Shown here: positions 60,057-61,984 of the stretch, piece after piece | Numbering within the stretch: the stretch's first letter is position 1 | Layout of the letters: every line of letters starts with the position of its first letter | IMG/VR virus record: IMGVR_UViG_3300045988_155865 | Coordinates: 60,944-124,943 of that record | Strand: one strand, 5' to 3' | Length of the DNA: 64,000 nt | Source of the DNA: a virus | The notes under the pieces: model-generated | The model's input: the letters and a program-made list of their open reading frames with translations, nothing else | The model's database searches: none | What the model was told of the DNA's origin: nothing | Made by a program: the position numbers and the translations under genes

Positions 60057-60674
60057 CTAAACTTGTTCTGCTCGTTTTTTCTCTTCTTCTGTAAATCCAG
60101 AAGTTAAATCAACATTAGCAGATTTACTTGGAAACTCTATATTTACCATACAATCATTTTTCCAATAGTAAGCAAATTTATCAAGAAAATTGTCATTAAT
60201 AGAAATACCCTCTTGAGTATTATTATCTTCTTTTACGCCTACGGTCTCAACAAACTTACATAAACCTGGATATTGCTCTAACACTTGCTCTTTTATTAAA
60301 TTAAGGAAATCGTTATTAAAGCCATTTACATTAGCTTCTGTATAAGCAATAATTTCATCTGTAATATTTTCTATTTTTACAGACCAATTTTTCGTTTTTA
60401 TGGTAAGATATACAAATAATGGCAATACTGATACGATACCATTGTTATCTTCATTGAAACATAATATATCAATAATTTCCTTTGACGTATAGGCATATGT
60501 TGGTTCTATATGTTCTTTATTATTTACCCAATCATAATATTTGCTTGCTATTTTATCTGTTGCAAAATAGTTGTTTATTTTATTTGCATAGATATTTTGT
60601 AAATCTTCTAAATCTGTCATATAACAAGCTATTTCTGGATCAGGATAAGTTGTTCCTCCTACAATATAACTCAT
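60057..60674 (-). CDS. hypothetical protein
   Basis: ORF track 60057..60692; Met at 60674 (MSYIVGG) has a GGAGG RBS. Confidence 0.45.
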   Translation of the reverse strand: MSYIVGGTTYPDPEIACYMTDLEDLQNIYANKINNYFATDKIASKYYDWVNNKEHIEPTYAYTSKEIIDILCFNEDNNGIVSVLPLFVYLTIKTKNWSVKIENITDEIIAYTEANVNGFNNDFLNLIKEQVLEQYPGLCKFVETVGVKEDNNTQEGISINDNFLDKFAYYWKNDCMVNIEFPSKSANVDLTSGFTEEEKKRAEQV

Positions 60675-61890
60675 ATTCCTCTTCCTCCTCAATTATTTCT
60701 GTTAAATATCGTTCTATATTTTCATTATATATTGATAAAACTTGTTTCGTTAAATCATATAAAGTTTGATTCCAGAAGCACATTGTCTCTGGCAATATAA
60801 AAAAATTATCAAATCTTTGTTTTGCCATTGAAGGGCATTGAACTTGATAACATAATTTACGATACCCACAATCTTCGCATAAACTCTCGGTTTCGCTTGT
60901 GATTGCGGAAAGCGATCTATATTCACTTAAAAGCTTGATATGGCGGTCGCCCGCGATTCCTTTATATATATCTCCTAAATAAAAAAGATTATTTTCTTTA
61001 TTATTAGTTACTTGTTCTTGGCACCCATATATACTACCATCTGGACCAATACTAATGCTTACAGTACCAAGGCCACATCTCATTATATCTCTTGATATTA
61101 ATTGGTCTAGTTCATTAATCTTAAGACTAGGCTCACGCAATACCCCTAGGAACATATCTCTTATAAAGCTACTCTCTATTGGTTTAATGCCATTTATTAG
61201 ACTAATAGTGAAGTAACTATAAAATTTTTCTAATTCTATTTTTAATTTTTTTAAATTCTCTTTAGAAAAATTATGTCTACTATCTGGAGTTGCATAGAAA
61301 TACTTAAAGCCTTGTTGTTCTGCAAATATAATATTATCAAATAATTTATCACAAGTATCCTCATATATAGTCATGCGGAATACTGTATTAGGGAATTTTT
61401 CCAGCAGATAAGATAAATGCGTTTTAACCAAATCAAAACTACTGCCCCTAAGTTTGCAAGGTCTATTATATTCTTGTGTTTCTCTATCCCCATCCATTGA
61501 TAACAAAGGTATTATTTTATGCTCATATAAAAAATCTATATTTTGTTTGCTCAATAGTGTACCATTAGTTGTAATGCCTAAATTGAAACAATTAGCATAC
61601 TTTTCTTCTATCCATTCTGTTAATCGTTTTATTAAAGACCATTCCAAAAGTGGCTCACCACCAAAAAAATTAATAGTGCCTTTTAGGTGCGGATTCCCAG
61701 TTTTTTCCCGTCGCGCTGTTAAATTCTTATACAAATAAGTCACTGCTGATGTGGCAGTTTCAAAAGACATGCGCTCTGGATTCTGATTTACAAAGCAATA
61801 GCGACATTTAAGATTACATTGATTTGTTACGTTTAAGCAAGCGATTATTGGGCAATGGTATTCTTCTTTATACTCTTTAAGAGATAGCAT
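60640..61890 (-). CDS. radical SAM enzyme with C-terminal SPASM domain (peptide/protein maturase-like)
   Basis: ORF track; CNLKCRYC (CxxxCxxC); FGGEPLL; C-terminal Cys cluster CEDCGYRKLCYQVQCP; no TAG. Confidence 0.7.
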   Translation of the reverse strand: MLSLKEYKEEYHCPIIACLNVTNQCNLKCRYCFVNQNPERMSFETATSAVTYLYKNLTARREKTGNPHLKGTINFFGGEPLLEWSLIKRLTEWIEEKYANCFNLGITTNGTLLSKQNIDFLYEHKIIPLLSMDGDRETQEYNRPCKLRGSSFDLVKTHLSYLLEKFPNTVFRMTIYEDTCDKLFDNIIFAEQQGFKYFYATPDSRHNFSKENLKKLKIELEKFYSYFTISLINGIKPIESSFIRDMFLGVLREPSLKINELDQLISRDIMRCGLGTVSISIGPDGSIYGCQEQVTNNKENNLFYLGDIYKGIAGDRHIKLLSEYRSLSAITSETESLCEDCGYRKLCYQVQCPSMAKQRFDNFFILPETMCFWNQTLYDLTKQVLSIYNENIERYLTEIIEEEEEYELYCRRNNLS

Positions 61891-61984
61891 CTATAAACCT
61901 CTGTTTTTCTTCATATTTTACCATATACTCTTTGTTGCTTTCTACAAAAATATCATTATCCCACTTGTAAATATATAATTTCAT
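61877..61984 (-). CDS. 35-aa peptide ORF immediately upstream of and overlapping the rSAM-SPASM start (candidate RiPP precursor)
   Basis: MKLYIYKWDNDIFVESNKEYMVKYEEKQRFIDAIS preceded by AGGAGAATAATTAAA; aromatic-x-N/K/D motifs (WDN, YKW). Confidence 0.35.
   Translation of the reverse strand: MKLYIYKWDNDIFVESNKEYMVKYEEKQRFIDAIS

What the first reader, a model, noticed from the sequence alone, without database searches (positions are those of the whole stretch)
60640..61984. Radical-SAM/SPASM enzyme preceded by an overlapping 35-aa peptide ORF: candidate phage RiPP system
60640..61890 has CxxxCxxC plus a C-terminal SPASM-type cysteine cluster (CEDCGYRKLCYQVQCP), the hallmark of peptide-modifying maturases. 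Its start codon overlaps the stop of a 35-aa ORF with its own RBS (MKLYIYKWDNDIFVESNKEYMVKYEEKQRFIDAIS). The peptide has no Cys, so it is not a sactipeptide or ranthipeptide. It is rich in aromatic-x-N/K/D triplets (WDN, YKW, YIY), the substrates of cyclophane-forming (triceptide, streptide or darobactin-type) rSAM-SPASM enzymes. Downstream 60057..60674 is an uncharacterised partner. RiPP-like clusters in phages are very rare.
Basis: inference. Interest (0 to 1): 0.7.

Follow-up and report, generated by a model that had tools for sequence, protein, structure and literature searches.

The report
Phage radical-SAM enzyme, cysteine-motif tail protein
The radical-SAM enzyme is real, but its conserved partner is a cysteine-motif, probably tail-associated, protein two genes downstream that it probably cross-links, not the 35-residue upstream ORF, and the phage reads the TAG stop codon as glutamine.

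Summary
The sequence features are as described: a 416-aa radical-SAM/SPASM gene (60640..61890, minus strand) and a 35-aa ORF (61877..61984) with an AAGGAG ribosome-binding site that overlaps its start. The RiPP reading does not hold.

- **Genetic code.** The window reads TAG as Gln (code 15). This changes the downstream genes to a 215-aa and a 389-aa protein.
- **The 35-aa ORF.** It occurs only in a 97%-identical strain. It is absent from seven related lineages (44-63% enzyme identity), is the fastest-evolving stretch of the locus, and its aromatic triplets match AT-rich background composition.
- **The enzyme's relatives.** It best matches Cys-thioether-forming maturases (PapB, SCIFF/CteB, QhpD), all below family cut-offs. 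Cyclophane formers match only its N-terminal core.
- **The conserved partner.** In 32 of 40 non-redundant viral clusters a neighbouring gene, nearly always the next one, encodes a protein with runs of C-[E/Q]-x-x repeats. Where the flanking genes could be annotated (three locus types), the pair sits in a tail or baseplate module. Bacterial-genome relatives lie almost all in strictly anaerobic Firmicutes.
- **In the window.** The 389-aa protein keeps a reduced version of the motif (CRGCMSFCMQGKQ, then QCCICN).

Best reading, by inference only: a protein-modifying thioether cross-linker acting on a probably tail-associated protein. I found no published description.

The parts
62139..62160 (-). 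Intrinsic-terminator-like hairpin ending the upstream C1-peptidase/SLH gene
   Evidence: 9-bp stem with 7 G-C pairs, followed by a T-rich tail. Conserved in L006.
62078..62106 (-). Sigma-70-type promoter (TTGACT-17-TATAAT with TG) of the operon
   Evidence: best promoter match in the region, 11 of 12. An equivalent terminator-plus-promoter arrangement is seen in L002, L086, L087, L088 and L007.
61877..61984 (-). 35-aa ORF (MKLYIYKWDNDIFVESNKEYMVKYEEKQRFIDAIS). Not conserved; probably a vestigial or lineage-specific leader ORF.
60640..61890 (-). Radical-SAM/SPASM maturase, 416 aa, with no in-frame TAG
   Evidence: The start at 61890 agrees with the N-termini of homologues.
60027..60674 (-). 215-aa protein of unknown function ('down1'). 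It overlaps the enzyme's 3' end by 35 nt and has one TAG = Gln at 60057..60059.
   Evidence: Present in six of seven close lineages; absent in L087 and in all loci that carry a long Cys-repeat protein. No family hits. The AlphaFold2 model was poor.
58874..60043 (-). 389-aa protein ('down2') with TAG = Gln at codons 22 and 183. Proposed substrate of the enzyme. It overlaps down1 by 17 nt.
59978..60016 (-). N-terminal Cys motif of down2: C10-R-G-C13-M-S-F-C17-M-Q-G-K-Q22
   Evidence: C10, G12, C13, S15, F16, C17, G20 and Q22 are invariant in A4. The same motif is found in L002, L086-L089 and L007, and in the short Cys-repeat proteins of other code-15 phages, e.g. CDTCQSFCELGKQ.
59387..59401 (-). 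Second conserved Cys motif of down2: C215-C-I-C218-N219, within HPHQCCICN
   Evidence: C215, C218 and N219 are invariant in alignment A2, which includes Cys-repeat proteins of other phages.
62170..63099 (-). Context: papain-family (C1) peptidase with a C-terminal SLH domain, 309 aa, four in-frame TAGs
   Evidence: It is syntenic upstream of the enzyme in L002, L086-L089 and L007.

Best explanation
The gene at 60640..61890 encodes a radical-SAM/SPASM maturase of a large family carried by phages and prophages. Its conserved partner is a cysteine-motif protein encoded downstream in the same operon, not a small diffusible peptide.

In most relatives the partner is a protein of about 140-930 aa with long C-[E/Q]-x-x repeats. 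Where the flanking genes could be annotated, it sits where tail-fibre or baseplate genes lie. In this window and its close relatives the partner is the 389-aa protein at 58874..60043. That protein keeps only a short N-terminal motif (CxGCxSFCMxGxQ) and a second CxxCN motif.

Proposed mechanism, inferred by analogy with PapB, CteB and QhpD: the enzyme cleaves SAM, abstracts a hydrogen from a side-chain carbon of an acceptor residue, most likely the Glu/Gln that follows each Cys, and joins it to a Cys sulfur. The resulting thioether cross-links would stiffen or stabilise the protein without oxygen or disulfide chemistry. That would suit virions made in, and released from, strict anaerobes.

The 35-aa upstream ORF is not part of the conserved system. 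It is most likely a vestigial or lineage-specific leader ORF.

Shown: enzyme class, genetic code, operon layout, conservation of the enzyme/Cys-motif pairing, and non-conservation of the small ORF. Inferred: the identity of the substrate in this window, the thioether chemistry, and the virion location.
For: - **Enzyme class.** CxxxCxxC plus seven invariant C-terminal Cys. The best NCBIfam hits are all Cys-thioether formers: PapB 157.6 bits, nif11-type 120.7, SCIFF 110, CcpM 108, QhpD 104. The best solved relative is CteB (5WGG), E = 4e-21. Eight enzymes from diverse related loci show the same ranking.
- **Partner.** In 32 of 40 non-redundant viral clusters a neighbouring gene within two positions, almost always the next one, has at least 5 and up to 35 closely spaced Cys. 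Most bacterial-genome relatives with roughly 30% identity or more show the same, with runs of up to 97 Cys.
- **Repeat unit.** C-[E 39% / Q 38%]-[S/T]-[small].
- **Homology of the window's partner.** The N-terminal half of down2 aligns with the short Cys-repeat proteins. C10, C17, A123, N127, C215, C218 and N219 are invariant. The motif is invariant in close homologues.
- **L087.** In this locus the down2 homologue directly follows and overlaps the enzyme gene, with no down1.
- **Operon.** One terminator and one promoter are followed by overlapping ORFs.
- **Tail context.** In other clades the pair sits among tape-measure, baseplate-wedge, tail-fibre N-terminal and endolysin genes. The L089 homologue of down2 carries a Phage tail lysozyme domain.
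- **Hosts.** Prophage copies lie almost all in strictly anaerobic Firmicutes.
- **Selection.** The enzyme is under purifying selection, pN/pS 0.13.
Against: - No biochemical data exist.
- Every curated thioether family is matched below its cut-off, so the chemistry is an analogy.
- The window's partner has only 3 + 3 motif Cys (3 + 2 conserved), not a long repeat, and might no longer be modified.
- The gene immediately after the enzyme here is down1, which has no Cys motif and could be the true partner or an accessory factor.
- The Cys-rich stretches could instead bind metals.
- AlphaFold2 models of down2 and down1 were uninformative, with pLDDT 36.8 and 38.7.
- Window down2 has no Pfam, PHROG, NCBIfam or PDB hit. 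Its 'Cys-His hydrolase' C-terminal half rests only on a DCSG...H motif that I read by eye.
- Virion location is inferred from synteny in other phages, not shown.
Confidence: 0.55

Rival explanations
1. One reading: the 35-aa ORF is a RiPP precursor that the enzyme cyclises through aromatic cross-links (triceptide-, streptide- or darobactin-type).
For: The ORF has a good Shine-Dalgarno site and ATG, overlaps the enzyme's start, and stays open in the one closely related strain despite 8 nucleotide changes. It contains W-D-N and F-I-D triplets. Cyclophane-forming SPASM families appear among the weaker hits, e.g. YhhB 70.6 bits and FxsB 54.5 bits.
Against: - It is absent from seven related lineages that share the enzyme at 44-63% identity and from all 80 viral loci except the near-identical strain.
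- pN is 0.051 against 0.004-0.012 for its neighbours.
- Triplet content equals background, and its composition resembles that of spurious ORFs.
- Cyclophane-family matches cover only residues 19-169 and lie far below their cut-offs.
- The enzyme has no N-terminal peptide-recognition (RRE) region; the alignment to CteB starts at CteB residue 99.
Confidence: 0.04
2. The 215-aa protein encoded immediately downstream (60027..60674), whose gene overlaps the enzyme's 3' end by 35 nt, is the enzyme's substrate or an obligatory accessory or chaperone subunit.
For: Its overlap with the enzyme gene is conserved (35 nt in the window, L002 and L086; 4 nt in L088). It is present in six of seven close lineages and is under strong purifying selection, pN/pS 0.04.
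Against: It is absent in L087, where the Cys-motif protein directly follows the enzyme. It is also absent from all the more distant loci. It has no conserved Cys motif, only scattered Cys. It matches no family at significance (two weak PHROG hits only, E about 0.005-0.01) and gave no usable model.
Confidence: 0.15
3. The Cys-rich stretches are metal-binding or Fe-S-binding modules, and the enzyme performs some other reaction on this or another target (for example Cys/Ser oxidation, methylation or epimerisation), so no thioether is made.
For: Dense CxxC and CxxxC arrays are typical metal ligands. All thioether families are matched below their cut-offs. SPASM enzymes catalyse many reactions (established knowledge).
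Against: The top-ranked relatives are consistently the Cys-thioether formers. The repeat has a fixed Glu/Gln after each Cys, which recalls the Cys-Asp/Glu thioethers made by PapB and QhpD (plus established knowledge). The anaerobic sulfatase maturase model scores only 63 bits, and there is no sulfatase nearby.
Confidence: 0.2

Closest known systems
PapB/PapA (freyrasin) ranthipeptide system, NCBIfam NF047865
   Same: It is the best-scoring curated family for this enzyme and for all 13 relatives tested (150-295 bits). The alignment runs nearly the full length of the profile, and neither has an N-terminal recognition domain. From the literature as I recall it, PapB makes several Cys-to-Asp/Glu side-chain thioethers on repeated Cys-x3-Asp motifs.
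   Different: The score is below the 340-bit cut-off. The partner is a protein of about 140-930 aa (389 aa here), not a short leader-core peptide. The repeat is C-[E/Q]-x-x rather than C-x3-D. The setting is a phage operon, in tail modules where the flanking genes could be annotated, with no protease or exporter.
CteB/SCIFF thioether maturase (PDB 5WGG; TIGR03974)
   Same: Closest solved structure by sequence, E = 4e-21. It has a SPASM domain with two auxiliary clusters and forms Cys thioethers.
   Different: The window enzyme lacks the first ~98 residues of CteB, which hold the peptide-recognition domain. TIGR03974 scores 110 bits against a cut-off of 425.
QhpD/QhpC (quinohemoprotein amine dehydrogenase maturation; TIGR03906)
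   Same: It is a precedent for a SPASM radical-SAM enzyme that installs several Cys-Asp/Glu thioethers in a protein subunit rather than a secreted peptide (established knowledge). It scores 104 bits.
   Different: The score is below the 453-bit cut-off. The biological setting is unrelated (a periplasmic enzyme subunit) and there is no repeat array.
NCBIfam TIGR04115, 'radical SAM peptide maturase, CXXX-repeat target family'
   Same: The family name describes a target with Cys every fourth residue, which is what the partners of this phage family look like. Spacing i to i+4 is the commonest (732 of 1372 close Cys pairs).
   Different: The score is 79.7 bits against a cut-off of 350, and 68-160 bits in relatives. 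These enzymes are therefore not members. I could not inspect the genomic context or the targets of true members.
Three-residue cyclophane-forming enzymes (XyeB, GrrM/OscB, FxsB, YhhB) and StrB/DarE
   Same: The same SPASM radical-SAM superfamily.
   Different: The matches are weak, cover only the N-terminal core and are far below cut-offs. There is no conserved aromatic-motif precursor.
TAG-recoded (code 15) gut phages, e.g. phAss-1 (OQ749652; PMC10607447)
   Same: In-frame TAG sits at Gln positions in many genes. phAss-1 carries a 34%-identical enzyme followed by a 174-aa Cys-repeat protein.
   Different: There is no nucleotide similarity. The phAss-1 record annotates these genes as hypothetical, and the paper does not mention radical SAM.

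Membership tests
Radical SAM superfamily | CxxxCxxC motif for the SAM-binding [4Fe-4S] cluster, and a Pfam PF04055 match above its gathering score | tested here: met
   C25, C29 and C32 are invariant in 27 homologues. PF04055 scores 54.7 bits against 29.5.
SPASM subgroup | Seven-Cys motif CX9-15GX4C ... CX2CX5CX3C ... C for two auxiliary clusters | tested here: met
   C272...G285-x4-C290, then C338-x2-C341-x5-C347-x4-C352, then C371, all invariant. The last spacing is x4, not x3. The Pfam SPASM model did not hit the window protein. TIGR04085 hit a relative.
PapB ranthipeptide maturases (NF047865) | Whole-protein score at or above the 340-bit curated cut-off | tested here: not met
   157.6 bits.
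PapB ranthipeptide maturases (NF047865) | Small precursor peptide with repeated Cys-x3-Asp/Glu next to the enzyme | tested here: not met
   The partners are proteins of about 140-930 aa with C-[E/Q]-x-x units. The only small adjacent ORF has no Cys.
CXXX-repeat target maturases (TIGR04115) | Whole-protein score at or above the 350-bit cut-off | tested here: not met
   79.7 bits. Relatives score 68-160 bits.
CXXX-repeat target maturases (TIGR04115) | Adjacent target with Cys every fourth residue | tested here: inconclusive
   Clearly met in most relatives. In the window only C10-x2-C13-x3-C17 remains.
Cyclophane-forming SPASM maturases (YhhB, FxsB, XyeB, GrrM) | Score above the family cut-off, and a conserved precursor with aromatic-x-x motifs | tested here: not met
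   YhhB scores 70.6 bits against 445 and FxsB 54.5 against 370, both covering only residues 19-169. The 35-aa ORF is not conserved and its motif content equals background.
RiPP biosynthetic cluster (general) | A short precursor gene conserved beside the maturase across relatives | tested here: not met
   The 35-aa ORF occurs only in a 97%-identical strain. The upstream slot is empty or holds unrelated genes in seven lineages.
RiPP biosynthetic cluster (general) | A peptide-recognition (RRE) domain in the enzyme or in a partner | tested here: inconclusive
   The enzyme aligns to CteB only from residue 99, so it has no N-terminal RRE-sized region. Whether down1 supplies one could not be judged because its model was poor.
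Anaerobic sulfatase maturases (TIGR03942) | Score at or above 349 bits, and a sulfatase target | tested here: not met
   63.1 bits. The window holds no gene recognised as a sulfatase, although not all 67 genes were scanned.
Thioether cross-linking chemistry | Loss of 2 Da per Cys-acceptor link, non-alkylatable Cys, and MS/MS localisation | not testable with these tools
   Inferred only from the nearest families.
Code 15 (TAG = Gln) phages | In-frame TAG at conserved Gln positions in otherwise intact genes; coding density restored by recoding | tested here: met
   The papain DQGQ Gln and the invariant Q22 of down2 are both TAG. Coding density is 90%, with 34 of the 67 called genes containing TAG, and all stops are TAA or TGA.
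Code 15 (TAG = Gln) phages | Suppressor tRNA (anticodon CTA) | tested here: not met
   Only tRNA-Leu(TAA) is present in these 64 kb. The related contig is about 155 kb, so the suppressor may lie outside the window.

The most novel reading that the evidence does not exclude
A large, undescribed family of phage and prophage radical-SAM/SPASM enzymes installs thioether cross-links in Cys-repeat tail or virion-lysin proteins. These links would act as oxygen-independent substitutes for disulfides in viruses of strict anaerobes.

In this recoded clade, the TAG codon directly after the Cys motif (found there in 4 of 7 lineages) might additionally let the same gene yield a ~17-21-residue Cys peptide before TAG suppression sets in, and the full-length protein afterwards.
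Probability: 0.3. Interest if true: 0.8.

Novelty: new variant of a known kind. Interest (0 to 1): 0.55.

Why it matters
If the enzyme does cross-link a virion protein, RiPP-type radical chemistry would be working as a structural post-translational modification of phage tails. To my knowledge, and in the literature I could search, that has not been described.

- It would explain why radical-SAM genes sit inside tail modules of many gut phages and prophages.
- It would give a way to harden receptor-binding or cell-wall-degrading proteins in anoxic, reducing environments.
- It would provide natural long C-[E/Q]-x-x scaffolds for enzymatic stapling.
- It is also a practical warning. RiPP-mining and ORF calling on recoded phages under the standard code split the real partner into fragments and promote chance small ORFs to 'precursors'.

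Tried and rejected
- **DNA search.** A nucleotide search of 59400..62300 against GenBank phages found nothing.
- **Family searches on the partners.** NCBIfam and PHROG searches with the Cys-repeat proteins and down2, and Pfam and PDB searches with down2 and its close homologues, gave nothing for the Cys-motif region or for window down2. down1 has only two weak PHROG hits (E about 0.005-0.01).
- **Structure prediction.** AlphaFold2 on down2 (4-sequence alignment, pLDDT 36.8) and down1 (5 sequences, pLDDT 38.7) was too poor to use, so I ran no fold searches.
- **Origin of the 35-aa ORF.** I tested whether it is a truncated copy of the 113-aa gene in the same slot in L007. The ribosome-binding site and the first ~6 codons match (28 of 31 nt, z about 3.5, but one of 300 shuffles scored higher), and the proteins are not significantly similar. 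This stays a weak lead. The 113-aa gene has no other relatives in the viral collection.
- **Alternative start for the enzyme.** A start at 61914, possible once TAG is read through, is rejected because homologues begin at MLSLKEY.
- **TIGR04115 membership.** No enzyme tested reaches the cut-off.
- **Non-coding RNA.** An Rfam scan of 58000..64000 found only the tRNA.
- **Literature.** Searches on CXXX repeat, radical SAM with phage tail, ranthipeptide with phage, SPASM with phage-encoded, and phAss-1 found no description of this pairing.
- **TAG at the motif Gln.** It occurs in 4 of 7 lineages against 1.8 expected. With shared ancestry this is not significant.
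Full report
**1. What is in the sequence**

On the minus strand there is a 416-aa ORF at 60640..61890. A 35-aa ORF lies at 61877..61984, and its TAA stop falls 11 nt inside the larger ORF. The small ORF has AAGGAG 10 nt before its ATG. The large ORF has AGAGG about 7 nt before its own.

The large protein carries C25-x3-C29-x2-C32. It also has seven more Cys (C272, C290, C338, C341, C347, C352, C371) that are invariant across 27 homologues, in a SPASM-type arrangement. 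Pfam Radical_SAM is above its threshold.

**2. The genetic code changes the picture**

The closest annotated phage, phAss-1, belongs to the 'code 15 clade'. Several database homologues 'do not translate to the query' under the standard code.

A frame-by-frame translation shows that the gene upstream of the finding is a C1 peptidase with an SLH domain. It is interrupted by four TAG codons, one of them at the oxyanion Gln of the papain 'DQGQ' motif. If TAG is read as Gln, the window becomes 90% coding. There are 67 genes, almost all on the minus strand, and they end only in TAA (55) or TGA (12). Thirty-four of them contain in-frame TAG.

This has three consequences.
- The 'uncharacterised partner' is 60027..60674 (215 aa, here called down1).
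- The two ORFs at 59495..59977 and 58874..59419 belong to one 389-aa gene, 58874..60043 (down2).
- The enzyme could in principle start 8 codons earlier, but the N-termini of homologues support 61890.

A terminator (62160..62139) and the best promoter match in the region (62106..62078) precede the small ORF. The enzyme and down1 overlap by 35 nt, and down1 and down2 overlap by 17 nt. The next promoter follows down2. These four ORFs therefore form one operon.

**3. What kind of enzyme it is**

Against NCBIfam the best matches are PapB ranthipeptide maturase (157.6 bits), nif11-type (120.7), SCIFF (110), CcpM (108) and QhpD (104). All are below their curated cut-offs, and most of the named ones are Cys-thioether formers. 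The cyclophane formers (YhhB 70.6, FxsB 54.5) match only the N-terminal core. Anaerobic sulfatase maturase scores 63 bits, and the QueE-like PHROG family is marginal.

The best solved relative is the SCIFF maturase CteB (5WGG, E = 4e-21). The alignment starts at CteB residue 99, so the phage enzyme has no N-terminal peptide-recognition domain. Thirteen enzymes from related viral and bacterial loci show PapB as the best or, in one case, second-best match, and none reaches the TIGR04115 'CXXX-repeat target' cut-off.

**4. The 35-aa ORF is not conserved**

A tblastn search of 85 loci finds the peptide only in the contig whose enzyme is 97% identical. There it shows 4 amino-acid changes in 35 residues, while the flanking proteins are 97-98.6% identical.
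- Its nucleotide divergence is 7.4%, against 2.0-4.3% for neighbouring genes and about 3% for the untranslated leader.
- Its pN is 0.051, against 0.004-0.012 for the neighbours.

In seven related lineages (enzyme identity 44-63%) the slot between the peptidase gene and the enzyme varies:
- only a terminator and promoter in L002, L086, L087 and L088;
- an unrelated 100-aa gene in L089;
- an unrelated 117-aa gene in L090;
- a 113-aa gene in L007.

The L007 gene shares its ribosome-binding site and first ~6 codons with the 35-aa ORF (28 of 31 nt), but the proteins are not significantly similar. This is a weak hint that the small ORF is the stump of a variable accessory gene.

The aromatic triplets (2 in 33 positions) equal the 2.9% background of this AT-rich genome. 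The ORF's aromatic content looks like that of spurious ORFs.

**5. What is conserved instead**

I clustered the neighbours of the enzyme in 80 viral loci. In 32 of 40 non-redundant clusters a neighbouring gene within two positions, almost always the next one on the same strand, encodes a protein with 5-35 closely spaced Cys. Most bacterial-genome relatives with roughly 30% identity or more show the same, with runs of up to 97 Cys in Clostridium tepidiprofundi.

The unit is C-[E 39% / Q 38%]-[S/T]-[small residue], and the commonest Cys spacing is i to i+4. The arrays visibly tend to end in C-[E/Q]-x-x-x-Q.

In three other locus types whose flanking genes I annotated, the pair sits among tape-measure, baseplate-wedge, tail-fibre N-terminal and endolysin genes. 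Where the organism is named, the bacterial hosts are almost all strictly anaerobic Firmicutes: Oscillospiraceae, Scatomorpha, Lawsonibacter, Peptoniphilus, Fenollaria and Clostridium. There is one Massilibacteroides contig.

**6. The partner in this window**

The window's clade lacks a long repeat. Its down2 protein begins MNQISDKKD-C-RG-C-MSF-C-MQGKQ. The same C-x-G-C-x-S-F-C-M-x-G-x-Q motif opens the homologues in L002, L086, L087, L088, L089 and L007 and is invariant in database homologues.

It matches the last unit of the short Cys-repeat proteins of other code-15 phages, for example CDTCQSFCELGKQ. An alignment of both groups keeps C10, C17, A123, N127, C215, C218 and N219 invariant. The N-terminal ~230 residues of down2 are therefore a reduced member of the partner family, fused to further domains.

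In L087 the down2 homologue directly follows and overlaps the enzyme gene, with no down1. In L089 it ends in a Pfam 'Phage tail lysozyme' domain. The C-terminal half of the window protein has a DCSG...H pattern that I read as a possible Cys-His hydrolase, but no profile or PDB search supports this.

**7. Mechanism: what is shown and what is inferred**

Shown:
- the enzyme class;
- the recoding;
- the operon layout;
- the conserved enzyme/Cys-motif pairing;
- the tail-module context in the other clades examined;
- the non-conservation of the small ORF.

Inferred:
- the enzyme acts on down2;
- it forms Cys-to-side-chain thioethers, as PapB, CteB and QhpD do (established literature, from my own knowledge);
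- the Glu/Gln after each Cys is the acceptor;
- the product is a hardened virion protein, useful where disulfides cannot form.

The main uncertainty is whether the reduced motif is still modified, and what down1 does. They are listed with their tests.

**8. Comparison with the known, and novelty**

The system works most like PapB/PapA and, as a protein-directed case, QhpD/QhpC. It is not a member of any curated family tested, because all cut-offs are missed. The name of TIGR04115 describes the same type of target, but the phage enzymes score 68-160 bits against a cut-off of 350.

Full-text searches found no paper describing a phage radical-SAM enzyme paired with a Cys-repeat tail protein. The phAss-1 paper does not mention the gene.

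I rate it a new variant of a known kind. The specific claim of a phage RiPP with a 35-aa cyclophane precursor is not supported.

Noticed in passing
window 1..64000: The whole window uses TAG as a sense codon (Gln). Of the 67 called genes, 34 contain in-frame TAG, all stops are TAA or TGA, and nearly all genes are on the minus strand. The enzyme itself has no TAG, while its neighbours do. No suppressor tRNA lies in these 64 kb; the only tRNA is Leu(TAA) at 58543..58619.
   Followed up: yes
window 59978..59980 (codon 22 of the 389-aa gene): The invariant Gln that closes the Cys motif is encoded by TAG here and in L088, L089 and L007 (4 of 7 lineages; 1.8 expected from TAG usage). In L007 it is the only TAG in the gene. 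Under standard decoding the gene would yield a 17-21-residue Cys-motif peptide. Given shared ancestry, this is not statistically significant.
   Followed up: partly
window 62170..63099 (-): A papain-family (C1) cysteine peptidase fused to an S-layer-homology domain. The Gln of its papain 'DQGQ' motif (the oxyanion-hole Gln in papain) is encoded by TAG. It is syntenic upstream of the enzyme in all close relatives, which also carry Peptidase_G2 tail-spike-like genes further upstream.
   Followed up: partly
window 56723..58237 (-) and 58238..58873: A TROVE/Ro60-like protein (DUF2828 plus DUF7788; PHROG 850 'RNA-binding protein', E = 1e-123) lies next to about 640 nt of non-coding DNA that holds the tRNA-Leu. 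Bacterial Ro60 proteins pair with tRNA-like Y RNAs, but Rfam found only the tRNA here.
   Followed up: partly
window 53823..56633 (-): A 936-aa protein that, read by eye, has an N-terminal signal peptide and SLH-like repeats, and no PHROG hit. Together with the SLH peptidase it points to a host with an S-layer or SLH-anchoring cell wall.
   Followed up: no
P0111 (homologue of the enzyme, 728 aa, on a 146.8-kb contig): One homologue of the enzyme carries an intein with a LAGLIDADG endonuclease (PF14890, PF14528). Inteins usually sit in conserved, important proteins.
   Followed up: no
L026 and L052 (four in a row); L001, L056 and L059 (two in a row): phAss-like code-15 phages carry two to four tandem radical-SAM paralogues directly upstream of the Cys-repeat protein. 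This suggests several different modifications, or division of labour.
   Followed up: no
L105 4175..6964 (Clostridium tepidiprofundi DSM 19306): A 929-aa protein after the enzyme gene has a run of 97 closely spaced Cys built from repeated ~40-residue blocks. L107 and L108 have runs of 67.
   Followed up: no
window 37951..39429 (-): A 492-aa protein with an N-terminal membrane helix and a long Ala/Lys/Glu-rich coiled region that looks flotillin/SPFH-like by eye. It has only a weak PHROG hit (E = 4e-4).
   Followed up: no
L106 4146..4637 (Massilibacteroides sp. MAG): A Bacteroidota-assigned contig carries a 36%-identical enzyme followed by a 163-aa protein starting MDERKISMCQGMCETCQAICQFGGQ. The pairing is therefore not confined to Firmicutes-associated contigs.
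   Followed up: no
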